A stretch of DNA of 47,471 nucleotides from a virus (lineage: Duplodnaviria; Heunggongvirae; Uroviricota; Caudoviricetes). A program made the position numbers and the translations under genes. The stretch lies in the IMG/VR virus record IMGVR_UViG_2541047941_000003, positions 1 to 47,471 of that record; one strand, given 5' to 3'. The notes under the pieces are model-generated. The model worked only from the letters and a program-made list of their open reading frames with translations. It ran no database searches and had not been told where the DNA came from. Within the stretch, counting starts at the first letter, position 1; each line of letters starts with the position of its first letter. This document shows positions 1 to 8,603 of this stretch, piece by piece.

Positions 1-1194
1 ATGATCACCGACACAAAGCTCAGGAAGGCGCTCGGCAAGAAAAGAGATGATATCGAGATTATTTCTGATTCGCACGGGCTCAACGCCAGAATCAGCCAGG
101 CCGGAAAAATATCATTTTTCTATCGGTATCGCTGGGCCGGTAAAGCGGTAAAACTCAATGTTGGTGATTATCCTGCAATGAGTATCACCCAGGCAAGAGA
201 GCGTCGCCAACAATTCAGAAACTGGTTAACTGAGGGACTGGATCCGCGAGAGCAGGTGAAGCTGGATAAGCAGACCCGACAGGAAGCGATGTCCGTTGCC
301 GAAGCGTTCAATTACTGGATTGAAAGGCACTGTATCGCTAACGGGCTAGTTAAAGTCGATTACTATCGCCAGGTGTTTGAGAAACATATCGCCGAACCGA
401 TGAAGAATGTCAAAGTCGATAACACAGCGAAAATGCACTGGATCAACGTCTTCGATTCTATAGAAAGCAGGGTGATGGCTCATTACATGCTTTCGCTGTG
501 CAAACGGGCGTTTAGGTTCTGCGTTAACAGAAGTGTGATCGCCTCAAACCCACTCGAGGGATTACTGCCATCTGATGTCGGGCAAAAGCCTAAAAAGAGA
601 ACTCGCAGGATGGACGATGACGATCTGCGCAAAATCTATCAGTGGTTGAAAAGCCATATGTCGATAGAGTCCGTTTTCCTGGTGAAATTTATTATGCTTA
701 CCGGATGCCGTACGGCTGAGATTCGACTTAGTGAGAGATCATGGTTTCGATTGGATGATAATGAGTGGGTCGTGCCTGCGGGCAGTTATAAAACTCGGGT
801 ACATATTAGAAGGGGACTCTCAGACGCCGCCGTTAACCTGGTCAGAAATCACCTCAAGAAAATAAACACCAATCACCTGGTGACTTCACAACGTAAAATT
901 GATGGCGGGATCAAAGATTCGCCCGTTCATTCACCTGTGGCATCCAATTACGCCCGTTCTATTTGGAATGGAACAGGTATGGCAGAGTGGTCGCTTCATG
1001 ATATGAGGCGGACGATAGCCACAAATCTCTCTGAGTTAGGTTGCCCGCCGCACGTAATTGAAAAGCTGCTCGGGCATCAGATGGTGGGGGTTATGGCGCA
1101 TTACAACCTTCATGACTATATCGATGATCAGAAACACTGGCTCCGCGTTTGGCAGAGCCATCTTGAAGAGATCATCGGAGAGCCCTTCAGTTAA
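1..1194 (+). CDS. int: Tyrosine recombinase / phage integrase (P4-like family)
   Basis: 397 aa ORF; C-terminal HDMRRT (HxxR) and [10 protein letters not shown] (catalytic Tyr) motifs typical of tyrosine integrases; N-terminal arm-type domain; ORF starts at window base 1. Confidence 0.85.
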
Positions 1195-1433
1195 TTTATC
1201 TTCTTTTTATCCTCCCACTCTTTGATTGACTCAGAGCGCCAGCGGTTAGGGTTGCCGGGCCAGTCAGGGGGTGGGAACGGGCATACGAAGCCCCGAGGCA
1301 TTGTGTCTGCACTTTGCCATGACCAAAGGGTTTTGCGTGAAATTTTGTAGCGACTGGTCAGGTCTGACGTTACCAAAATATCATCCATAGCTCTCTCCAG
1401 TTGCCCGTTCGGGCCATTCAAAATCTTTTTCAA
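1191..1433 (-). CDS. AlpA/Xis-like small DNA-binding protein (putative excisionase)
   Basis: 80 aa, adjacent to int; Trp-rich C-terminus ([21 protein letters not shown]) resembling AlpA-type excisionases. Confidence 0.5.
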
Positions 1434-1672
1434 CCAACCTGCCCGGGCAGGGAGCGGAGACGGCGCATGCCGGTCATCGCTGTGGCCACGTAGCTCGCCT
1501 TTCGGTTCACCACCTCCACCCAGACTTTCACGCCTTCAACCTTCACCGTATAAGTCTCTTTCATCTTGCTTCGCCCATAGTCGCCATATGTTTGCAAGTG
1601 AGCTGCCAGCGCGATGTCGCATGCTTGGCGAGCTAAAGGTGATTGCTTACTTCCTCGATTGATCAGTCGCAT
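1430..1672 (-). CDS. Hypothetical protein
   Basis: 80 aa ORF in operon with recombination genes; start uncertain. Confidence 0.35.
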   Translation of the reverse strand: MRLINRGSKQSPLARQACDIALAAHLQTYGDYGRSKMKETYTVKVEGVKVWVEVVNRKASYVATAMTGMRRLRSLPGQVG

Positions 1673-1710
1673 ATAATCTCCTTGAGGGAGGGTTACCCCT
1701 CCCGGTCTCG

Positions 1711-2829
1711 TCAGGCCACGTATTCCGGTTTCATATCCGCCAGGGTGATGCTGAATTGATCGTGCAGTTCATCGCCTAAGTGACGCTTTGAAGATGCAAG
1801 CATGCGCTCGGCTTCAGCGAACCGTTCGGCTGCATGCGGCTCGTCGGGCTGGGGCAGGGATTTAATAGCCTCCTCAACCTTGTTGCGTGCATCCACTAGG
1901 TAATAACGCTTTACGGCTTTGTTTTTCAGCTCGGTGAATAGTGCGGATCCCAGCGTAGCTTTCGCCGTTTCAATGTCGGCACGCAGCGATTTGGCGCTAT
2001 CCACGTCCTGAGCAGATTCGATGCGTTCGCGGAAATCATCGGCAAGAGAGTCGACATTTACCGACGATTCCTGTGCGCTTTGCGTGGTTGTGACGGTGTC
2101 ACCTGAGATATCAGCCAGGCTAACGCGTTGCGGCGTTGGGTTGATCTCTTTTTCTGTGCGCTGTTCAATCTCATCAGGGGTGTACACACCAAGAACAACT
2201 GCAGGGCAATACAGGCGCGCCCAGTATTTGAGTGCCAGATAAGCGATCTGCTGTTTCGGGTTTGATACCCAAAGTGGAGAATTACGTGTGATTACGCTGG
2301 AGAGGAAAACAGGCTCTCCCCAGGTGATATCACTTTCACCGCGAATAACGGCACCTACCCGTACCGACAGTCCTTGTTCATCAGCACTTTCCCAACCGCG
2401 TACCATTTCTTTCTTGTCGTACGTCCCGCCACCTTTCGCAGGCTTTTTAACGGTTATCTCGCGGCTGCTGGCACATTTCGACCAGTCGCCCTCGTACTCA
2501 TAGTGAAAGCGGCCAACGATGGCGTTTGAGCTGGAGATCACCGCATTAACCAGTTGCGCTTCGTATCCCAGGACACCGTTAACCAGGTGCGTCTTTTGCG
2601 CCACGGCGTAAGGGTTCATACCCCACTGCATCGCCTGCATGATGATGGCCATGCAGTCTGCCGGATTGCCGCGGAGGTGCTCAGGCACCGTTACGGCTGC
2701 CTGTGCCATCAACCCGGCGACAGACTGAAGCTGGGTTAAAGCCTGCACGTTGAAAATGGCATTGCTGGCTGAGATCGTGTTTGGAGTCTGCTGTTCAGCG
2801 GTTACGATATTCGTGTTTTCCATCATCAT
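1711..2829 (-). CDS. recT: Single-strand annealing recombinase (RecT/Bet-like)
   Basis: 372 aa ORF immediately downstream of RecE-like exonuclease in same orientation, as in recET operons; family call by synteny and general sequence character. Confidence 0.5.
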   Translation of the reverse strand: MMMENTNIVTAEQQTPNTISASNAIFNVQALTQLQSVAGLMAQAAVTVPEHLRGNPADCMAIIMQAMQWGMNPYAVAQKTHLVNGVLGYEAQLVNAVISSSNAIVGRFHYEYEGDWSKCASSREITVKKPAKGGGTYDKKEMVRGWESADEQGLSVRVGAVIRGESDITWGEPVFLSSVITRNSPLWVSNPKQQIAYLALKYWARLYCPAVVLGVYTPDEIEQRTEKEINPTPQRVSLADISGDTVTTTQSAQESSVNVDSLADDFRERIESAQDVDSAKSLRADIETAKATLGSALFTELKNKAVKRYYLVDARNKVEEAIKSLPQPDEPHAAERFAEAERMLASSKRHLGDELHDQFSITLADMKPEYVA

Positions 2830-2834
2830 TCCCC

Positions 2835-5800
2835 TTATGCCTGAGTACGCAGCGCTTCAAGGCGGCGCAGGTCGAAGTCGTTCAGTTCGTCGGTGTAGTC
2901 AGCAGTGATTGGCGCTGGCCATTCACCTGTGTCGAATCCGGTTGCGATATTGCGCATCGCTTTGCGGTACTCGAGCATACCCAGCTCCAGTAGTTCAGCG
3001 GATGCCTCGATGATGGCGATCCAGTGGTAGTTCTCGTCTTTGTTGACGAAAATCCAGAAGAACTGATCCAGCGCTGCGGTTTCGCAGTACATAGCCGCGC
3101 TCAGGTGATAATCACGTTCAATAATTTCCCGGTGTAGCCTGGCGCGCAGGCTTTCCTGCTTAACATTCCACATGCTGATGGTTTTCAGGTCTGCACCTAT
3201 ACGCACGCCATCCAGGTCGATCTCAAGGTCAGGGCGCACACGAACTTCCAAGCCCGTCTCCTCGTCAAAACCAAAGTAGCTCACCTCAACGGCTCGGCTA
3301 GGGTGGGTCAGCAGCATGCCGGCGGTCGGGTGTGCCAGAAGCGCTTTTTGAATATTCAGCGCGGTGCTCAGCTGCTGGCGGGTGACCAGCACTTTTCCTT
3401 CCGGGTTATCGCGCCAGGCATCCAGCAGTTCGTCGGCAAATACGGCATCTGGTTTGACTGCCTTCACGGCCTGGATCATGTCTGCTTTGGTACCGGACAC
3501 TTTCAGTGGTGCCGGTTTCTGTGCTTCCTGAGCCACAAGGTCAGGGTTGATGATTGCCAACTGCTCCAGCAGCGCGTCACGGCTGCCGCTGGTTTTAACC
3601 GGCGGCGGCAGGGTGGCGTTGTACTCTTTAATGCATGCCTTCATTGCCGTCGCCGTCTGCTTCTGGTCACCATCAATACGCTGGAAGTCAGCTGGCAGCG
3701 CCATATAGTTCTGTGCCGTTTCTTCCAGGTTAGCGCCAAGCGGAACCTGCGGCGGCAGGGTGGCGTTGTACTCTTCCAGTAACACCTTGATGTCGTCGGC
3801 AGACAGCAGCGCCGGCAGGCTGGCATTGTGCTCATCGATAAAGGCGCGCAGGGTCGCGGCCGTTGTGAATGCGCCTTCAGGGATCACCGGTTCAACGCTG
3901 AATTCTGCGTCCAGTAGTTCAGGCTGCAACGCCAGCGCATGCACCAAGTTGCCCATGTCCAGCACCGCTGAGCGCTCTTTGACGATGGTTTTCTCTACGT
4001 GGCGCGCATTGAAGTACATCAGCGAAACGCGCGCATCTTTCACCTGGGTTGAGCTGATGCCGTTGGCGGCGTGGTAAACCTCGTTTGGCAGCCCTTCATA
4101 GCGGCCTGGCTCGAAATAAGCGGGATAAACAACAGCCGGTTCGTCAGATTGCGCTTCTGGCTCGGTTTGTGCTGCAACTGGTTCGGTTTGGCTTACAGAA
4201 TCGCTATTTTTGGCGACAGAATCCGTATTCTGGTTTACATCGTCCTTCTGGCTGGTATCTGACTCTTCACCAGACTCCAGACTGCTTTCGCCTGGCTGTA
4301 CTTCATCACCAGCTTGTTTTTCATCACTGACAGTTTCTTGAACCTGCACATTGCTGGTGGTCTCCGTAGCCTTTTTCGTGCCATGAGTTGCTGAGTTCTG
4401 CAGCAAAGCCGTAACGTCGAATATTCCGTTGCCGACATTTTTAACCAGTTCTTGTTCGACTTTCTGCGGTTGTGCTGCCGCTTCCTCTGCGCGGCGGCGT
4501 GCTCCTTCTTCACGCACGCGTTGCAGGTTCTCTTCGTGAGTGCAGAAGGATTTGCGCGGAGACTCCTTACCTTCAGGTTGGGGAATTTCCTGTGCTGCGG
4601 GTTCAGCCTCATGCAACGGCAATAACTCGACCGCGGAATTGAACGCGGCTGTCATGGTCTGGTTAACAAATTCCAGGTGAGCGACAGGAGTTAAATGAAT
4701 ATTTTCCGGTGCGATACGTACCAGGTTAAAAATAGCCGTGCGGTTAACACCCAGAACGCCTGGCTGATTGCGCAGGATGTTGCTCCATGATTTCCATGGT
4801 TCTTCTTTTTTGGTCACGATTTCTTTAGCGCGACGAAGAATGCTGCCCGGGATCTCGAAGTGGTTGAAGTCCATAGGCAGAAGGGCACACGCAATCTCTA
4901 AATCGAGAGTGTCCAGTGTGTGGTGTGCGTCAGGTCCACGGTCAGTGACGTAACCGCCGTCGGCATTAGTGCCGGAATCAGTACGCTGCACACTACTGAT
5001 GCGATTACCGGCGGCCCATTCGCGAACGAAGATACCGCGGTCGATGTGATCTGTAGCGAACCACAATTTCAAAAACTGGATTAAGGTTGCGAGTTCAGGG
5101 ATTTTTCCATCGACAGGGAAGACTTTCTTAACGGCATTCACGACTTTATGAATATCGTGCTCAATGGCTTTTTTGAATGCTTCCACATTCTCAGCTGCCA
5201 GCAGCAGGTTCTGGACGTACGCGTCATCGGTGTCCATCTCAAGGCGGACAATCTCATTTTTCTGCCCTGCGTCGATGTGATAGAGATATTCACCATCACC
5301 GATGAACTGAGCCAGTACGCGCTGGCGGAATGGCAGGGTGGCAACAACGATCAGGTTCGGTTGCTGTGTCTGCTGGGATTGCTCTTCGGTATCGACTTCA
5401 CCATCAACGACGCCACCTTCTGCCCGGCCGTTCTCGTCGGTCTGGATACCGTCCTCAACAGTGAGATCTTGACCCGTTGTAACGTCAGCAGCGTTGCTGG
5501 TTTCAGTTTTGAGCAACTGCAACTTACCACTGCGCCAGTCTTCTACCAGTTGATTGCGGTCACCGGCATCGGTGTTCACCCAGTCAGACATGAATGCAGC
5601 GATCAATCTTGGTTCGTGCTCTTCGTCTGGTGTGAAAATGTCCTTAACCGCCCGAATCATTTTCCACTCAGCATTCAGGCTGAGTTTGGCGGTCGCGGGC
5701 ACATCGTTCCTTGCCACAAGCAGGCTATGGAGATATGTATTGCCTTCATCCAGTGACATTTCGCTGGCAGCCAACTGCTGCTCTTTAGTGACGTGGGTTT

Positions 5801-6224
5801 GGTATTTATCGTTCATCAGATGGACGGCAAAGCGGACCGCTGGAGTACGGTTTTCAACCGGGACAATTTCGGACGCAGTCGCATCTTCAACGATTACGGT
5901 CGGAGTAGGTGTGTAGGGGGCGTAAACGGAACCAGTAGACACACCAGCGGCTTTTGGCAGCCAGGTGCGCCCATCGTCCTGAAGCTCGTAGCGATCACAC
6001 CAGGTAAAATCAACTTCACCTTCTTTCGGCAGGCCGTCGACAACTGGGAAATCAGTGCGAATCGGTTTGGCGTAGTCCTTACCCCGACCTGTTTCGATAC
6101 CTGCATCTTCCAGCGCAACATCCAGCATCAGATTGGCGCGAGCCTCGGTTTTAGCAGTGAACCAGACCACTGCATCTTGCTTTCCGGATTTCTGAGTGGC
6201 TTTAACCACATTAAAGAATTCCAT
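2835..6224 (-). CDS. recE: Exodeoxyribonuclease VIII (RecE-like), C-terminal PD-(D/E)XK/YqaJ-type nuclease domain
   Basis: 1129 aa; long acidic/low-complexity N-terminal region and conserved C-terminal nuclease-like region; followed by annealing protein. Confidence 0.65.
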   Translation of the reverse strand: MEFFNVVKATQKSGKQDAVVWFTAKTEARANLMLDVALEDAGIETGRGKDYAKPIRTDFPVVDGLPKEGEVDFTWCDRYELQDDGRTWLPKAAGVSTGSVYAPYTPTPTVIVEDATASEIVPVENRTPAVRFAVHLMNDKYQTHVTKEQQLAASEMSLDEGNTYLHSLLVARNDVPATAKLSLNAEWKMIRAVKDIFTPDEEHEPRLIAAFMSDWVNTDAGDRNQLVEDWRSGKLQLLKTETSNAADVTTGQDLTVEDGIQTDENGRAEGGVVDGEVDTEEQSQQTQQPNLIVVATLPFRQRVLAQFIGDGEYLYHIDAGQKNEIVRLEMDTDDAYVQNLLLAAENVEAFKKAIEHDIHKVVNAVKKVFPVDGKIPELATLIQFLKLWFATDHIDRGIFVREWAAGNRISSVQRTDSGTNADGGYVTDRGPDAHHTLDTLDLEIACALLPMDFNHFEIPGSILRRAKEIVTKKEEPWKSWSNILRNQPGVLGVNRTAIFNLVRIAPENIHLTPVAHLEFVNQTMTAAFNSAVELLPLHEAEPAAQEIPQPEGKESPRKSFCTHEENLQRVREEGARRRAEEAAAQPQKVEQELVKNVGNGIFDVTALLQNSATHGTKKATETTSNVQVQETVSDEKQAGDEVQPGESSLESGEESDTSQKDDVNQNTDSVAKNSDSVSQTEPVAAQTEPEAQSDEPAVVYPAYFEPGRYEGLPNEVYHAANGISSTQVKDARVSLMYFNARHVEKTIVKERSAVLDMGNLVHALALQPELLDAEFSVEPVIPEGAFTTAATLRAFIDEHNASLPALLSADDIKVLLEEYNATLPPQVPLGANLEETAQNYMALPADFQRIDGDQKQTATAMKACIKEYNATLPPPVKTSGSRDALLEQLAIINPDLVAQEAQKPAPLKVSGTKADMIQAVKAVKPDAVFADELLDAWRDNPEGKVLVTRQQLSTALNIQKALLAHPTAGMLLTHPSRAVEVSYFGFDEETGLEVRVRPDLEIDLDGVRIGADLKTISMWNVKQESLRARLHREIIERDYHLSAAMYCETAALDQFFWIFVNKDENYHWIAIIEASAELLELGMLEYRKAMRNIATGFDTGEWPAPITADYTDELNDFDLRRLEALRTQA
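3601..3836. repeat. Three imperfect copies of a ~28 nt coding repeat (cggcggcagggtggcgttgtactctt) inside recE-like gene, encoding E(Y/H)NA(T/S)LP motifs
   Basis: Direct sequence comparison of 3601-3628, 3747-3777, 3806-3836. Confidence 0.6.
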
Positions 6225-6363
6225 GTGAGATCCTCATTTTTGGGTGTTAGAATCCCCGGACCATTGATAGCGCCCATTGGGTTAACTTTGGTTTTAATGT
6301 TGTTTCCGGTGTAACTTTGGTCGGTACCACCGGACGTAGATCCCGCCTTGCGCGGGTTTTACG

Positions 6364-6525
6364 TTAGCCTTCGTGAGCCATCTGGTCGTGCGAAGCGCAA
6401 CGTTTGGAGCAATACTCTTTTTCTTTGCGCGCCAGCTGTGAGCCGTTGCGATAGAGAAGGGTGCTCTTGATTACTTCCTCCGTTTTAACCGGCTTGCCGC
6501 AATATCCGCATTTCTTGTCTAACAT
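6364..6525 (-). CDS. Small Cys4 zinc-ribbon protein (53 aa; below ORF-track cutoff)
   Basis: ATG..TAA ORF translating MLDKKCGYCGKPV...YCSKRCASHDQ with CxxC...CxxxC spacing; lies in early-left operon. Confidence 0.4.
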   Translation of the reverse strand: MLDKKCGYCGKPVKTEEVIKSTLLYRNGSQLARKEKEYCSKRCASHDQMAHEG

Positions 6526-6536
6526 GACATCCTCCG

Positions 6537-6887
6537 CTAGTGGCTGAGTCCATGCCCCAGACCGTTCAGATAAACTTCAACCAGCAAATCCTTGGTGTAA
6601 GTCATTTCTACGCCGCGATGCAGATACAAACGTCCGCGAGCGTTAGCTGATGCCGTCCAGGTTGAGTCTTTGTGTTTGACGAGCATCCCCGGCTGAACTG
6701 CGCCGCGGTTTACTGTCTGTGTACCGTAGTGCTGATGAACCATGATGTTCTCCAGTTTTTCTGAGTGAACTTCGCTGGTGATGCCGCGGCGCTGATCTTC
6801 ACGGTTGAGCGTTTTAACTCTGCAATTCACCACCGCGAAGCTCACTCTGTGCTTTGCCCTTGTCGCCAGGCTGGCGGAACGTTTCAA
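6537..6887 (-). CDS. Hypothetical early-left operon protein
   Basis: 116 aa ORF just downstream of OL-like operator region; start may be internal Met. Confidence 0.4.
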   Translation of the reverse strand: MKRSASLATRAKHRVSFAVVNCRVKTLNREDQRRGITSEVHSEKLENIMVHQHYGTQTVNRGAVQPGMLVKHKDSTWTASANARGRLYLHRGVEMTYTKDLLVEVYLNGLGHGLSH

Positions 6888-6988
6888 ACCTACTGCGCGT
6901 TAATCTCACCACCTCATTCCGGTCTTCGTATGCCCCGGACAGCTTCTTCGTGGGCGTCCTGCTTTGGTGGTTGTGTTGATGGAGTAAT

Positions 6989-7003
6989 TAAACACAATGT
7001 TTA
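6989..7003. promoter_or_regulatory. OL-like operator: palindrome TAAACAcaaTGTTTA, near-identical to OR site at 9059-9073
   Basis: Inverted repeat read directly; 14 of 15 positions match TAAACATAATGTTTA in cI-cro intergenic region. Confidence 0.55.
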
Positions 7004-7127
7004 TTTACGTGTCAACATAATGAGTGTTTTTATATAAACAAAAAGTTTAGTTGGTTGCGCTCGTTGGCACGAGTAGTATGTTTTGTGGTCTATTTTGTGG
7101 TTATAAAAAAATCGATGAGGGTGAGTT

Positions 7128-7334
7128 ATGGATCGTGACGAACTGGAAGAAGACCGCGCAGCGTTTATTGCGGGGGAGATTGGTGGCGCAGTTGTCAGTC
7201 TGATAGCTAACGGGATTGTGATCAGCCGCGATGCGATTGTGGATAGTCTAGAGGCTAAGCGCAGGGTAGTGGGAAACGTCATTCACAAGTGGGTATTGCG
7301 GGATGCGGCTGCTATGGTGAGAAAAGGGCAATAA
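7128..7334 (+). CDS. Hypothetical small protein (68 aa), convergent with cI operon
   Basis: ORF followed by bidirectional terminator hairpin. Confidence 0.4.
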   Translation: MDRDELEEDRAAFIAGEIGGAVVSLIANGIVISRDAIVDSLEAKRRVVGNVIHKWVLRDAAAMVRKGQ

Positions 7335-7336
7335 AA

Positions 7337-7364
7337 AACCCAGTTCGGTAACTGGGTTATTGCT
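7337..7364. terminator. Bidirectional intrinsic terminator (aacccagtt-cggt-aactgggtt flanked by A-run and T-run)
   Basis: 9 bp perfect stem, 4 nt loop, poly-A upstream and T-rich downstream; sits between convergent genes. Confidence 0.6.
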
Positions 7365-7790
7365 TTATTCAACAGATGATGGGGGGGTCGGTGCTTTCTT
7401 AAAGATCGACCACTGAGAAATGTAGGTCAGCAACCTTGAGCTTAACTCGAGTTCTTTTTGTAATATTTCGTCATAACGTTTATTTGCTGCTTGCATGGTC
7501 GCATCACTAGCGTGATTGTCATCCATAATGATCTTTAGCCTTTTCTTTTCTCGGCTTGAGCATATTGTAAATAACAGACCTGTAAATGACATTCCACCAA
7601 AATCCTTTAACGTTTTGATTACAAAAAGAAGAATCAAAGACAGAAAAGGAACAGATCTGTAGGCCCAATCACGAAACTCACCGTCAGGAAAGAAGATAGG
7701 AATAGCATCTGTAGCATAACCACATATGAGGGAGACAATTAGAAAAGGTAGTCCATTTTTAGCTACATTTTTAACGTTATCGTTAGCCAT
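7365..7790 (-). CDS. Small membrane protein (~141 aa, 2-3 predicted TM helices, charged C-terminal tail), cassette gene C
   Basis: Hydrophobic stretches GLPFLIVSLICGYATDAIPIFF, VPFLSLILLFVIKTL; ATG overlaps stop of upstream gene (ATGGCTAA); AT-rich. Confidence 0.5.
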   Translation of the reverse strand: MANDNVKNVAKNGLPFLIVSLICGYATDAIPIFFPDGEFRDWAYRSVPFLSLILLFVIKTLKDFGGMSFTGLLFTICSSREKKRLKIIMDDNHASDATMQAANKRYDEILQKELELSSRLLTYISQWSIFKKAPTPPSSVE

Positions 7791-8166
7791 GATTTTTTCC
7801 CGAGAACGATTTCGAGTCAACATGTAACTTTTGTGTTTTGACTACATAATACGCAAATCCAATCTTAACTAACCAATAAGCTACTGGTATGAGTGCTGCG
7901 TAAAGAGGGATATAGTACATAACCTTACCTCCTGTTAACCACACTATAACACCTAGCATCACTATTAGCGCGACAGAAAATGCTTTCAGCCCAACACAGC
8001 TATCAGGATGTGAAACACTGTTCCTTAGCAACAATATCCTGGATTCATCAAGTGTGTAAGGAATATCGCCAACATGATTTTCGATTTTTGGGAAGGTCTC
8101 AAATACTTCAACCCGATCAATCGAAATAATTGAGCTTGATTGATGATCTAAGCAAACTGCAGCCAC
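7783..8166 (-). CDS. Small membrane protein (127 aa, 2 C-terminal TM helices), cassette gene B
   Basis: GTG start preceded by GAGGG; TM segments AFSVALIVMLGVIVWL and IPLYAALIPVAYWLVKIGFAYYVV; AT-rich. Confidence 0.45.
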   Translation of the reverse strand: MAAVCLDHQSSSIISIDRVEVFETFPKIENHVGDIPYTLDESRILLLRNSVSHPDSCVGLKAFSVALIVMLGVIVWLTGGKVMYYIPLYAALIPVAYWLVKIGFAYYVVKTQKLHVDSKSFSGKNHG

Positions 8167-8168
8167 TG

Positions 8169-8492
8169 TTATCCCTCTCGAACCTTTAGTGATACTCGGT
8201 TAGCAGCAAATGTGGCAATGAAACCACATTCTACACATATAACAGGGAATGCCCATATACCTCGGCCAGCTGAATGAGGTAGAGGAAGGGTAATTATTGC
8301 AGGATAGTCTTGACTATCTTCTCGTGGAGGAACTCCCCAAAGCGTATGCTTACAAAGCGGACAGGCCATCTCGCCATGTTTTTCTTCGAGGCGTTGAAAA
8401 TAATCTCGAAATTCTTGTCTTGATATTGATAGCGTCAATGCTGTTGTATTGACACTTTCCTGACTTTTTTCTTCTTCAACCTGTTCGCCCAT
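8169..8492 (-). CDS. Small zinc-ribbon protein (~107 aa), cassette gene A
   Basis: CPLC...CVEC motif pair; first gene downstream of cI in same orientation; AT-rich. Confidence 0.45.
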   Translation of the reverse strand: MGEQVEEEKSQESVNTTALTLSISRQEFRDYFQRLEEKHGEMACPLCKHTLWGVPPREDSQDYPAIITLPLPHSAGRGIWAFPVICVECGFIATFAANRVSLKVREG

Positions 8493-8603
8493 CTCAGCTC
8501 TCAATATAATGATAATTAACTGGTAAGTGAATTTTGCATATCGTTAAGATGTATCCCATTGGTACAGAAACATCTGAGGGGTAAGTAGCTTTTAACTACC
8601 GTG

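What the first reader, a model, noticed from the sequence alone, without database searches (positions are those of the whole stretch)
3601..3836. Internal nucleotide and peptide repeats in the RecE-like exonuclease linker region
Three imperfect copies of a ~28 nt unit encode repeated EYNATLPP-type motifs in the non-catalytic part of the protein. Such repeats can mediate partner binding or length variation by slippage.
Basis: seen in the sequence. Interest (0 to 1): 0.2.

Follow-up and report, generated by a model that had tools for sequence, protein, structure and literature searches.

The report
Repeated SAP-like helices in RecE loop
Three repeated peptide motifs in a prophage RecE exonuclease are real: they are building blocks of a helical, SAP-like module array inserted in the enzyme's presumed DNA-entry loop, and recombination between the repeats has produced natural alleles that gain or lose a 49-residue block, which is a modest but new twist on a well-known enzyme.

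Summary
A 32-nt direct repeat lies at 3597-3628 and 3744-3775 (31/32 identical, 147 nt apart). A 75% copy lies at 3804-3835. They encode FIDEHNASLP, LEEYNATLPP and IKEYNATLPP in the minus-strand RecE gene (2835-6224, 1129 aa).

The repeats are not in the linker. They sit inside the PD-(D/E)XK nuclease domain, between the active-site His762 and the PD..DxK motif. The ~174-aa insertion replaces the 34-aa loop (residues 665-698) that, in Rac RecE, projects from the rim of the tetramer channel.

AlphaFold2 predicts the insertion as a confident eight-helix module (pLDDT 86.6). Each motif ends a 14-residue helix and starts a proline-rich connector. In distant relatives the same loop is a canonical SAP domain (Pfam 37 bits). 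I therefore read the array as an expanded, degenerate SAP/HeH array, probably for capturing DNA ends; that function is inferred.

Length variation is real. Near-identical E. coli alleles carry 0, 1 or 2 copies of the 147-nt unit, and other relatives duplicate other units. The paralogous repeats evolve in concert.

This is a new variant of a known enzyme family, of modest interest.

The parts
2835..6224 (-). RecE-family exodeoxyribonuclease gene (1129 aa) that contains the finding
   Evidence: ORF list and translation. Pfam Exonuc_VIII PF06630 scores 112.7 bits at aa 4-98; DUF3799/PDDEXK PF12684 scores 39.3 bits at aa 952-1104. There is weak similarity to Rac RecE structure 3H4R. The gene is 95-99.9% identical to genes annotated RecE in phage HK225 and in E. 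coli prophages.
2838..4136 (-). C-terminal nuclease domain (aa 697-1129), with His762, D999 and D1012-x-K1014
   Evidence: Alignment to 3h4r_A. His652 of RecE corresponds to chain index 51, which aligns to window H762. The PD-DXK signature of RecE is described in PMC11611040.
3381..3902 (-). Loop insertion (aa 775-948, 174 aa) replacing the Rac RecE loop 665-698; predicted eight-helix module with architecture A1-A2-B-A3-C1-C2
   Evidence: The gap in the alignment to 3H4R lies between chain residues ~64 and ~97. The review describes 665-698 as long loops at the rim of the channel. AF2 on the insertion alone gives mean pLDDT 86.6 and pTM 0.65; within the 433-aa domain model it reaches pLDDT 86-95. 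Coordinates were checked by translation.
3801..3860 (-).
   Evidence: Unit profile 39.2 bits. Helix H15-28 of the insertion model. Translation check.
3741..3800 (-). A2 unit, ADDIKVLLEEYNATLPPQVP (aa 809-828)
   Evidence: Unit profile 38.1 bits. Helix H35-48. Translation check.
3654..3740 (-). B spacer, LGANLEETAQNYMALPADFQRIDGDQKQT (aa 829-857), with one short helix
   Evidence: Helix H59-67. It contains the conserved Y..LP..FQ.I motif in the 164-aa class.
3597..3653 (-). A3 unit, ATAMKACIKEYNATLPPPV (aa 858-876); the best-conserved element of the whole domain
   Evidence: Unit profile 40.7 bits. Helix H84-97. Mean identity to 28 relatives is 66%, against 57-58% for the nuclease core.
3504..3596 (-). 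C1 unit, KTSGSRDALLEQLAIINPDLVAQEAQKPAPL (aa 877-907); resembles SAP helix 2
   Evidence: The C-type unit profile finds 1-3 copies in 49 relatives. Helices H108-118 and H120-127. The unit contains the invariant K, T, G, R and D columns in A1.
3411..3503 (-). C2 unit, KVSGTKADMIQAVKAVKPDAVFADELLDAWR (aa 908-938); homologous to helix 2 of a canonical SAP domain in distant relatives
   Evidence: Pfam SAP 14.2 bits, E 0.036, on GTKADMIQAVKAV. BLASTP to the SAP-bearing loop of P0319 gives 47% identity over 34 aa, E 2e-8 for the single comparison.
3597..3628 (+). DNA direct repeat, copy 1 (AACCGGCGGCGGCAGGGTGGCGTTGTACTCTT); encodes the end of A3
3744..3775 (+). DNA direct repeat, copy 2 (31/32 identical to copy 1); encodes the end of A2
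3804..3835 (+). DNA direct repeat, copy 3 (75% identical); encodes the end of A1
3597..3743 (.). 147-nt (49-aa) recombination unit that is deleted or duplicated in natural alleles
   Evidence: CUWW10 has +147 nt with a hybrid junction KACIKEYNATLPPQV. 730V1 has -147 nt with junction LLEEYNATLPPPVKTSG. The loop-length classes 112/115, 161/164 and 210 appear.

Best explanation
What it is (shown). The three EYNATLPP-type motifs are the C-terminal ends of three 14-residue alpha-helices plus the start of proline-rich connectors. I call these 20-aa pieces 'A-type' units. They belong to a ~165-174-aa all-helical module with architecture A1-A2-B-A3-C1-C2. The module is inserted within the catalytic PD-(D/E)XK domain of a RecE-family 5'-3' exonuclease. 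It sits exactly where Rac RecE has the long, flexible loop (residues 665-698) that projects from the rim of the tetramer's central channel.

Relationship to SAP (partly shown, partly inferred). In distant RecE-family relatives, the loop at this position is a single canonical SAP domain: helix, extended loop with a conserved Gly-Lys, helix. In this lineage the half-motifs have been duplicated. A-type units correspond to helix 1 plus the extended loop. C-type units (LKtSGsR/KdaLL...) correspond to the end of the loop plus helix 2. The window's own array has diverged below the Pfam SAP threshold.

Likely function (inferred). With four such arrays per tetramer, the module would form a crown at the presumed DNA-entry rim that helps capture or hold DNA ends. 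Ku70's SAP domain on the Ku ring is the analogy.

DNA-level behaviour (shown). The two best-conserved copies form a 32-nt direct repeat 147 nt apart. Unequal recombination or replication slippage between them removes or duplicates one 49-aa block in frame while preserving unit boundaries. Alleles with 0, 1 and 2 blocks exist in near-identical E. coli prophages. Gene conversion, or repeated cycles of duplication and deletion, keeps the two copies homogenised.
For: Position in the enzyme:
- The alignment to 3H4R and the His652 register place the array in the 665-698 loop.
- That loop is described as projecting from the channel rim and presumed to capture dsDNA (PMC11611040 section 2.3).

Structure:
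- AF2 predicts eight helices with pLDDT 86.6 and pTM 0.65 for the insertion.
- The A-unit profile hits exactly three sites at 38-41 bits.

SAP link:
- Pfam SAP hits the C-type units in 8 of 10 relatives' loops. The P0254 loop reaches 26.0 bits, above the 23.9 cut-off.
- 15 of 31 loops hit SAP at E <= 0.05. Only SAP-named families and Ish1 recur in more than two loops: SAP_new25 in 6, Ish1 in 4. Thymopoietin (2), FANC_SAP (1) and SDE2_2C (1) also appear.
- The short-loop relative P0319 has a full SAP match of 37.2 bits, E 2.2e-9, covering profile positions 6-35 of 37. P0321 scores 25.4 bits.
- The P0319 SAP helix 2 aligns to window C2 at 47% identity over 34 aa.
- A profile of C units finds the MKL1 SAP structure 2kvu at E 0.002.
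- The invariant Gly followed by Lys/Arg before the helix matches the DNA-contacting Gly/Lys at the end of the SAP loop (PMC9399289).

Functional constraint:
- The loop length of 162-167 aa is kept in relatives down to 25-37% identity.
- Loop identity averages 49%, against 57-58% for the core. A3 averages 66%.
- The Gifsy recET orthologues, which carry the same insertion, are genetically active (PMC3121763).

Length variation:
- CUWW10 +147 nt; 730V1 -147 nt.
- P0148 and P0241 carry the deletion; P0013 carries a diverged duplication; P0015, P0113, P0123 and P0212 carry extra 21-aa A units and 31-aa C units.

Concerted evolution:
- Paralogue identity is 29/30, 30/30 and 27/30 in the window, L004 and L007.
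- Orthologue identity between lineages is 22-28/30.
Against: - The window's own loop scores only 14.2-14.3 bits on Pfam SAP, below the 23.9 cut-off.
- The A-unit profile does not significantly match helix 1 of the canonical SAP in P0319, scoring -2.2 bits. 'A-type = helix 1' therefore rests on position and residue pattern only.
- The insertion is net acidic, with 25 D+E against 15 K+R and pI 4.5. That is unusual for a DNA-binding element.
- No DNA-binding or activity data exist for this loop variant.
- The 0- and 2-unit alleles are single assemblies each, and P0148 comes from a 519-nt contig. An assembly artefact cannot be excluded for any individual case.
Confidence: 0.6

Rival explanations
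1. Partner-docking platform. The repeated helices are multivalent binding sites for a protein partner, such as the cognate RecT annealase, SSB or another host or phage factor. On this reading they do not bind DNA, and copy number tunes how many partner molecules are recruited per tetramer.
For: - The module is net acidic, pI 4.5.
- RecT is encoded immediately downstream at 1711-2829.
- Exonuclease-annealase pairs interact specifically; the review describes the lambda Exo-Red beta CTD complex.
- SAP domains can serve as protein-binding modules; the SLX4 SAP switches from DNA binding to MUS81 binding (PMC13171448 abstract).
Against: - The loop lies on the rim where dsDNA is presumed to enter. 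In the lambda model, the annealase is loaded at the face where ssDNA exits.
- The conserved residues are mostly helix-packing or capping positions plus the Gly-Lys/Arg of the SAP loop.
- Co-variation with RecT was not examined.
Confidence: 0.25
2. Neutral, tolerated expansion. The loop is a permissive site where repeats accumulate by duplication without specific function. The repeats matter only as recombination substrates.
For: - The site is a hot spot. Loop lengths of 13-25, 41-67, 95, 115, 133-144, 162-167, 189 and 215-217 aa occur across the family.
- A different subfamily carries unrelated ~23-aa tandem repeats there.
- In-frame loss or gain of 49 aa is tolerated in annotated intact genes.
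Against: - The 162-167-aa length class is conserved down to 25-37% identity.
- The loop is nearly as conserved as the catalytic core, and A3 is more conserved.
- The predicted structure is confident.
Confidence: 0.1
3. The repeat acts at the nucleic-acid level, as a regulatory or protein-binding DNA site, a structured RNA, or part of an antisense gene. On this reading the peptide repeat is incidental.
For: The two copies are identical at synonymous sites within a genome. A 159-codon ORF exists on the + strand at 3303-3782.
Against: - Synonymous sites differ freely between orthologues: GAG/GAA, ACC/ACT, CCG/CCA/CCC. This fits gene conversion rather than sequence constraint.
- The antisense ORF carries 1-4 stop codons in six relatives.
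- No Rfam family reaches its gathering score in 2800-6300.
- No other copy of the repeat occurs in the 47-kb window.
Confidence: 0.03

Closest known systems
Rac prophage RecE (exonuclease VIII), nuclease domain structure PDB 3H4R
   Same: - Same family, with Pfam Exonuc_VIII at the N-terminus and DUF3799/PDDEXK at the C-terminus.
- Same active-site His and PD-DXK signature.
- An adjacent recT gene.
- A loop at the same position of the fold that projects from the channel rim.
   Different: - Rac RecE has a 34-aa, largely disordered loop (665-698) with no A- or C-type units.
- The window protein has a 174-aa, confidently predicted eight-helix array there.
- Sequence similarity to 3H4R is weak: E 0.0023, in two ~10-bit stretches.
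- The protein is 1129 aa long, against 866 aa.
Gifsy-1/Gifsy-2 RecE orthologues of Salmonella, and RecE of coliphages HK225 and mEp237
   Same: The Gifsy-type nuclease domain shares the A1-A2-B-A3-C1-C2 insertion at 88% identity; HK225 is 95% identical in DNA and mEp237 99%. The Gifsy recET genes suppress recB recombination defects when derepressed (PMC3121763).
   Different: These are simply members of the same subfamily. They differ in the degree of repeat homogenisation: 24-26/30 identity between the paralogous cores, against 29/30 in the window.
SAP domain (Pfam PF02037) and related helix-extended-loop-helix motifs, e.g. Ku70 C-terminal SAP, RAD18, SDE2, MKL1
   Same: - The C-type units match the second half of the SAP profile in most relatives. 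Distant relatives carry a full canonical SAP at the same loop.
- An invariant Gly followed by a basic residue precedes the helix, as in SAP.
- It is an appendage on a ring-shaped protein that handles DNA ends, as with Ku70 SAP (PMC13347266 abstract).
   Different: - The window's own sequence is below the Pfam threshold.
- The linkers are longer, with 11 residues from the capping Asn to the Gly. A canonical SAP, from my recollection of the consensus, has about 6.
- Half-motifs are duplicated separately, giving three A units and two C units rather than whole SAP repeats.
- The module is net acidic.
- Fold searches do not give significant SAP matches.
Lambda exonuclease (Red alpha)
   Same: It is a toroidal, processive 5'-3' dsDNA exonuclease of the PD-(D/E)XK superfamily, paired with an annealase.
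   Different: It is a trimer and lacks long rim loops. It has nothing equivalent to the repeat array.

Membership tests
RecE family exodeoxyribonuclease (exonuclease VIII) | N-terminal Exonuc_VIII domain (PF06630) above the curated threshold | tested here: met
   112.7 bits against a cut-off of 25, at aa 4-98.
RecE family exodeoxyribonuclease (exonuclease VIII) | C-terminal PD-(D/E)XK-like nuclease domain (PF12684/DUF3799) above the threshold | tested here: met
   39.3 bits against a cut-off of 26, at aa 952-1104. The first half of the domain is split off by the insertion. 3H4R aligns on both sides of it.
RecE family exodeoxyribonuclease (exonuclease VIII) | Active-site His (RecE His652) and the PD...DxK motif | tested here: met
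   H762 in NLVHALAL aligns to His652. RVRPD gives D999 and GADLK gives D1012/K1014. The signature is as described in PMC11611040.
RecE family exodeoxyribonuclease (exonuclease VIII) | Genetic pairing with a RecT-family annealase | tested here: met
   ORF 1711-2829 (minus strand) matches Pfam RecT at 125.5 bits and lies directly downstream.
RecE family exodeoxyribonuclease (exonuclease VIII) | 5'-3' dsDNA exonuclease activity and a toroidal tetramer | not testable with these tools
   The AF2 monomer model of the core was poor, with pLDDT below 50 from a shallow alignment. No multimer prediction or assay was available.
SAP domain (PF02037) | Pfam score at or above the gathering threshold on the window's own sequence | tested here: not met
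   14.2-14.3 bits against 23.9; only profile positions 19-32 are matched, on the C2 unit.
SAP domain (PF02037) | The homologous loop in relatives is a recognisable SAP domain | tested here: met
   P0319 loop: 37.2 bits, covering profile 6-35 of 37. P0321 loop: 25.4 bits. P0254 loop: 26.0 bits. 15 of 31 loops hit at E <= 0.05. P0319 SAP helix 2 aligns to window C2 at 47% over 34 aa.
SAP domain (PF02037) | Helix, extended loop and helix, with a conserved Gly (followed by a basic residue) just before helix 2 | tested here: inconclusive
SAP domain (PF02037) | Binds DNA | not testable with these tools
   The net acidic composition, pI 4.5, is a caution.
Slippage-prone tandem repeat (contingency-type locus) | Head-to-tail tandem array of the short unit | tested here: not met
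   TRF finds no array at 3597-3835. The copies are 147 and 60 nt apart.
Slippage-prone tandem repeat (contingency-type locus) | Copy number differs between closely related genomes | tested here: met
   Among the 34 E. coli complete genomes with at least 99% identity, one has +147 nt and one has -147 nt.

The most novel reading that the evidence does not exclude
RecE-family exonucleases carry, on the rim of their toroid, a copy-number-variable 'crown' built from duplicated halves of a SAP motif. Short direct repeats kept alike by gene conversion make the crown length switch in frame between 0, 1 and 2 blocks within otherwise identical prophages. This switching would adaptively tune DNA-end capture, or partner or host-factor engagement. 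The same loop has independently been expanded by an unrelated tandem repeat in another subfamily, which would make variable rim arrays a general, previously unrecognised design feature of these recombination nucleases.
Probability: 0.2. Interest if true: 0.55.

Novelty: new variant of a known kind. Interest (0 to 1): 0.35.

Why it matters
RecE/RecT is a workhorse of recombineering. Yet the only solved RecE nuclease domain, from Rac, has a short disordered loop where this large subfamily has a structured, conserved ~165-aa helical array. That subfamily includes the Gifsy prophages, HK225 and many enterobacterial prophages.

If the array is a DNA-end-capturing SAP-like crown, it gives a concrete handle on how RecE engages its substrate. 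It also supplies a natural allelic series (0, 1 or 2 blocks, plus variants with extra units) for testing how rim length affects processivity and recombination efficiency.

The finding is also a clean small example of in-frame modular length change and concerted evolution driven by a 32-nt intragenic repeat. None of this overturns what is known about RecE, so the significance is moderate.

Tried and rejected
- **Foldseek of the 433-aa domain model against PDB.** Only noise was returned, because the nuclease core was modelled at pLDDT below 50.
- **afdb50 library.** It was unavailable.
- **Protein search with the insertion alone.** It returned only enterobacterial RecE fragments. The module was not found in other protein contexts at that sensitivity.
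- **Profile of C-type units against PDB.** The top hit was the N-WASP WH2 repeats (GRDALLDQIRQ, E 7e-5). I rejected it as a short-motif coincidence: it covers 11-13 residues, belongs to a eukaryotic actin-binding motif, and gains its score from summing three repeats.
They are a second unit type.
- **DNA- or RNA-level function.** There is no Rfam hit, the antisense ORF 3303-3782 is not conserved, and orthologues vary at synonymous sites.
- **Partial matches H93 and H95 in E. coli genomes.** These are prophage decay; EC2001 has an IS26-associated truncation. They are unrelated to the repeats.
- **Literature search for RecE together with SAP.** No paper linking the two was found. The search term 'RecE' also matched unrelated words, so this is weak negative evidence.
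Full report
**1. The observation**

The finding lies in a 1129-codon ORF on the minus strand (2835-6224). The repeat finder reports one family of three direct copies on the + strand:
- 3597-3628 and 3744-3775, which are 31/32 nt identical and 147 nt apart;
- 3804-3835, which is 24/32 identical and 60 nt further on.

Tandem Repeats Finder finds no head-to-tail array here, so these are dispersed repeats. The 32-mer with up to 3 mismatches occurs twice in the 47-kb window, against 0.00 expected in shuffles.

On the coding strand the copies encode RAFIDEHNASLPALL, KVLLEEYNATLPPQV and KACIKEYNATLPPPV. A profile built from 121 such units of relatives hits exactly three sites in the protein (aa 789-808, 809-828, 858-877) at 38-41 bits. 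Shuffled neighbouring sequence never exceeds 3.2 bits.

**2. The gene and where the repeats sit**

The protein is a RecE-family exonuclease:
- Pfam Exonuc_VIII scores 112.7 bits at the N-terminus, and DUF3799/PDDEXK scores 39.3 bits at the C-terminus.
- A RecT gene lies directly downstream at 1711-2829, with an integrase at the window start.
- The DNA is 95% identical to the RecE gene of coliphage HK225 and 99.9% identical to RecE genes of E. coli prophages.

The alignment to the Rac RecE crystal structure 3H4R is split in two. The first stretch ends just after the active-site histidine; window H762 is equivalent to RecE His652, which fixes the numbering. The second stretch resumes at GKVLVT. 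The catalytic PD...DxK residues (D999, D1012, K1014) lie further downstream.

The repeats therefore lie inside the nuclease domain. They sit in a 174-aa segment (aa 775-948; window 3381-3902) that replaces RecE residues 665-698. The real acidic linker is upstream, and it carries its own small repeats at 4157-4229.

**3. Anatomy of the insertion**

AlphaFold2 on the 433-aa domain gave a poor model of the nuclease core (pLDDT below 50, shallow alignment). The insertion within it reached pLDDT 86-95. The insertion modelled alone gave mean pLDDT 86.6 and pTM 0.65, with eight helices.

The three reader motifs are the C-terminal halves of three equal 14-residue helices (AATLRAFIDEHNAS, ADDIKVLLEEYNAT, ATAMKACIKEYNAT), each followed by a proline-rich connector. 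I call these A-type units.

Downstream are two copies of a second, ~31-aa unit type:
- C1: KTSGSRDALLEQLAIINPDLVAQEAQKPAPL
- C2: KVSGTKADMIQAVKAVKPDAVFADELLDAWR

The A profile does not detect these units. A C-unit profile finds them in 1-3 copies in 49 relatives. The overall architecture is A1-A2-B-A3-C1-C2, with coordinates verified.

**4. Relatives: length variation**

*E. coli complete genomes.* 34 records hold this segment at 99% identity or more.
- Thirty are colinear with the window.
- Strain CUWW10 has exactly 147 extra nucleotides. The 49-aa block is duplicated, and the junction copy KACIKEYNATLPPQV is a hybrid of copies 3 and 2, as expected for unequal exchange within the repeat.
- Strain O19:H7 730V1 lacks exactly those 147 nt. 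Its junction is LLEEYNATLPPPVKTSG, and the gene is annotated intact.
- Two others show unrelated truncations.

*The 5.8-billion-protein collection.* 124 cluster representatives span the loop.
- 119 have 160-162 aa between the chosen anchors.
- One has 112 aa, carrying the same 49-aa deletion (P0148, from a tiny contig).
- One has 210 aa, with two diverged copies of the block (P0013), so this is an older event.
- Two have 212-213 aa (P0113 from Klebsiella, P0015 from E. coli), with an extra 21-aa A unit and an extra 31-aa C unit.

A Gifsy-like deletion allele (P0241) and a 215-aa variant (P0212) appear among the 50%-identity representatives.

**5. Concerted evolution**

I compared the 30-nt core of copies 2 and 3 within and between genomes.
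- The orthologous copies differ between these lineages, at 22-28/30. The differences include synonymous sites (GAG/GAA, ACC/ACT, CCG CCG / CCA GCA / CCC GCC).
- In phage PHB10 the copies have drifted apart, to 18/30.

This is the signature of gene conversion, or of repeated cycles of duplication and deletion. It also explains why synonymous sites are identical within a genome without any DNA-level function.

**6. What the module is related to**

An exhaustive HMMER search of 1.84 billion representatives, followed by anchoring on both sides of the loop, shows that this loop is a hot spot in the family.
- Lengths of 13-25 aa occur, resembling the short Rac type, along with 41-67, 95, 115, 133-144, 162-167, 189 and 215-217 aa.
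- The 162-167 class is kept down to 25-37% identity (P0257, P0259, P0275, P0299, P0312, P0322), with recognisable A and C units.
- P0250 and P0254 have four A units and three C units.

Pfam scans gave a consistent signal.
- The SAP domain (PF02037) hits the C-type units in 8 of 10 loops. The P0254 loop is above threshold, at 26.0 bits against 23.9.
- 15 of 31 loops hit SAP at E <= 0.05. SAP_new25 recurs in 6 loops and Ish1 in 4. Thymopoietin (2), FANC_SAP (1) and SDE2_2C (1) also appear among mostly one-off weak hits to unrelated families.
- In short single-domain relatives the loop is a full canonical SAP domain. P0319 scores 37.2 bits, E 2.2e-9, covering profile positions 6-35 of 37; P0321 scores 25.4 bits.
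- The SAP helix 2 and the following segment of P0319 align to the window's C2 unit at 47% identity over 34 residues.
- A profile of C units retrieves the solved SAP domain of MKL1 (2kvu, E 0.002) from the PDB.

A 66-aa class (P0239 and similar) has one A unit directly followed by one C unit: DSLKAFIREYNADKPKAEQLKLTGKKEELQDAIRAV. This bridges the canonical SAP and the expanded array.

The canonical SAP is two amphipathic helices joined by an extended loop, with a conserved Gly shortly before helix 2. The DNA-contacting residues concentrate in that loop, including a Gly and a Lys at its end (PMC9399289). The C units have an invariant Gly followed by Lys/Arg at that position.

This step is inferred from position and residue pattern. 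The A profile does not significantly match helix 1 of P0319.

**7. Limits of the SAP reading**

- The window's own loop is below the Pfam threshold, at 14.3 bits.
- Foldseek against BFVD and PDB gives nothing.
- The module is net acidic, pI 4.5.

I therefore do not file the window's array as a SAP domain. I file it as a diverged, expanded derivative of a SAP-bearing loop.

**8. Is it functional?**

- Across 28 relatives of the 164-aa class, the loop averages 49% identity to the window, against 57-58% for the nuclease core. A3 averages 66%, more than the core.
- The length class is conserved over large distances.
- The Gifsy-1/-2 recET orthologues carry the same insertion (88% identity). They suppress recB recombination defects when derepressed (PMC3121763).

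The insertion is therefore compatible with activity and is under constraint.

**9. Mechanism proposed**

*Shown:*
- the repeat units, their helical prediction and their position in the fold;
- the relatedness of the C2 unit to SAP helix 2 of relatives;
- the natural 0-, 1- and 2-block alleles, and the concerted evolution.

*Inferred:*
- Four arrays per tetramer surround the presumed DNA-entry rim and help capture or retain a DNA end. The extended loops and the Gly-Lys/Arg turns would be the contact elements. Ku70's SAP domain on the Ku ring is the analogy (PMC13347266 abstract).
- The 147-nt indels arise by replication slippage or unequal homologous exchange between the 32-nt repeats. I could not tell which.
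- Deleting the block joins A2 directly to C1. That recreates the same junction as A3-C1, because the ends of A2 and A3 are identical. This explains why the products stay modular and in frame.

**10. Rivals**

- *A partner-docking role (RecT, SSB or another factor)* is the main rival. The acidic charge favours it, as does the fact that SAP domains can bind proteins (PMC13171448 abstract). The loop's position at the presumed DNA-entry side counts against it.
- *A neutral expansion* is unlikely, given the conservation.
- *A DNA- or RNA-level role* is rejected. Orthologues vary at synonymous sites, there is no Rfam match, and the antisense ORF carries stop codons in all six relatives examined.

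**11. Novelty and score**

RecE, its rim loops and SAP motifs are all known. I found no description of a structured repeat array, SAP-related or otherwise, in the RecE loop, nor of its copy-number polymorphism. This negative result comes from searches of limited power.

I rate this a new variant of a known kind. A RecE or recombineering specialist would find it moderately interesting. It is not a surprise at the level of mechanism, so I give it an interest score of 0.35.

Noticed in passing
window 4157-4229 (minus-strand aa ~666-689): There are short 21-nt tandem or near-tandem repeats in the true acidic linker (TRF period 21, 2 copies, plus repeat family D19). They encode NTDSVAK/NSDSVSQ and TEPVAAQ/TEPEAQ.
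   Followed up: partly
window 5289-5302 and 5397-5410 (repeat D12, spacing 108 nt); locus L002: A second direct repeat in the same gene (13/14 nt, encoding ..DGE..) coincides with an exact 36-aa (108-nt) in-frame deletion in the RecE of E. coli UPEC85 (aa 274-309, between GGVV and DGEYLY). This is another repeat-bounded indel, here in the N-terminal region.
   Followed up: partly
proteins P0263, P0283, P0264, P0276 (RecE-family representatives), same loop position: Another RecE subfamily fills the same rim loop with an unrelated ~23-aa tandem repeat (KPSDKxIxxVExWxxAGKPENQxL). Its loop lengths are 52, 95, 142 and 189 aa, in steps of about 47 aa. Pfam gives no significant family for it.
   Followed up: partly
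locus L009 (E. coli O19:H7 730V1 RecE, 920 aa): Besides the 49-aa deletion, this allele differs from the window protein by several large gaps in aa 98-286 and by 94 mismatches. Its C-terminal part, however, is 99.8% identical in DNA. The gene is therefore mosaic, with the N-terminal region and the nuclease domain exchanged independently.
   Followed up: no
window C1 unit, 3504-3596 (GSRDALLEQL): The C-unit profile's best PDB hit is the WH2 actin-binding repeats of N-WASP (GRDALLDQIRQ, E 7e-5). I judged this a short-motif coincidence, but the similarity is striking.
   Followed up: partly
models meba3473364e8 and m400f0b1b56e2 (window aa 697-1129 and 775-948): With the same shallow, closely related alignment, AlphaFold2 modelled the insertion at pLDDT 86-95 but failed on the PD-(D/E)XK core (below 50). 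This is the opposite of what one expects for a 'loop'.
   Followed up: no
locus L010 (E. coli EC2001): This is a decayed copy of the prophage. recT and recE are both truncated next to an IS26 and an ISNCY transposase fragment. The recE breakpoint, at window position ~3732, lies 12 nt from repeat copy 2 but appears unrelated to it.
   Followed up: partly
window 1-2829: The context is the left arm of a lambdoid prophage: a tyrosine integrase with an Arm DNA-binding domain (1-1194, +), a DUF4060 protein (1430-1672, -) and RecT (1711-2829, -). Several small ORFs upstream of recE (6364-8504) have no Pfam match.
   Followed up: partly
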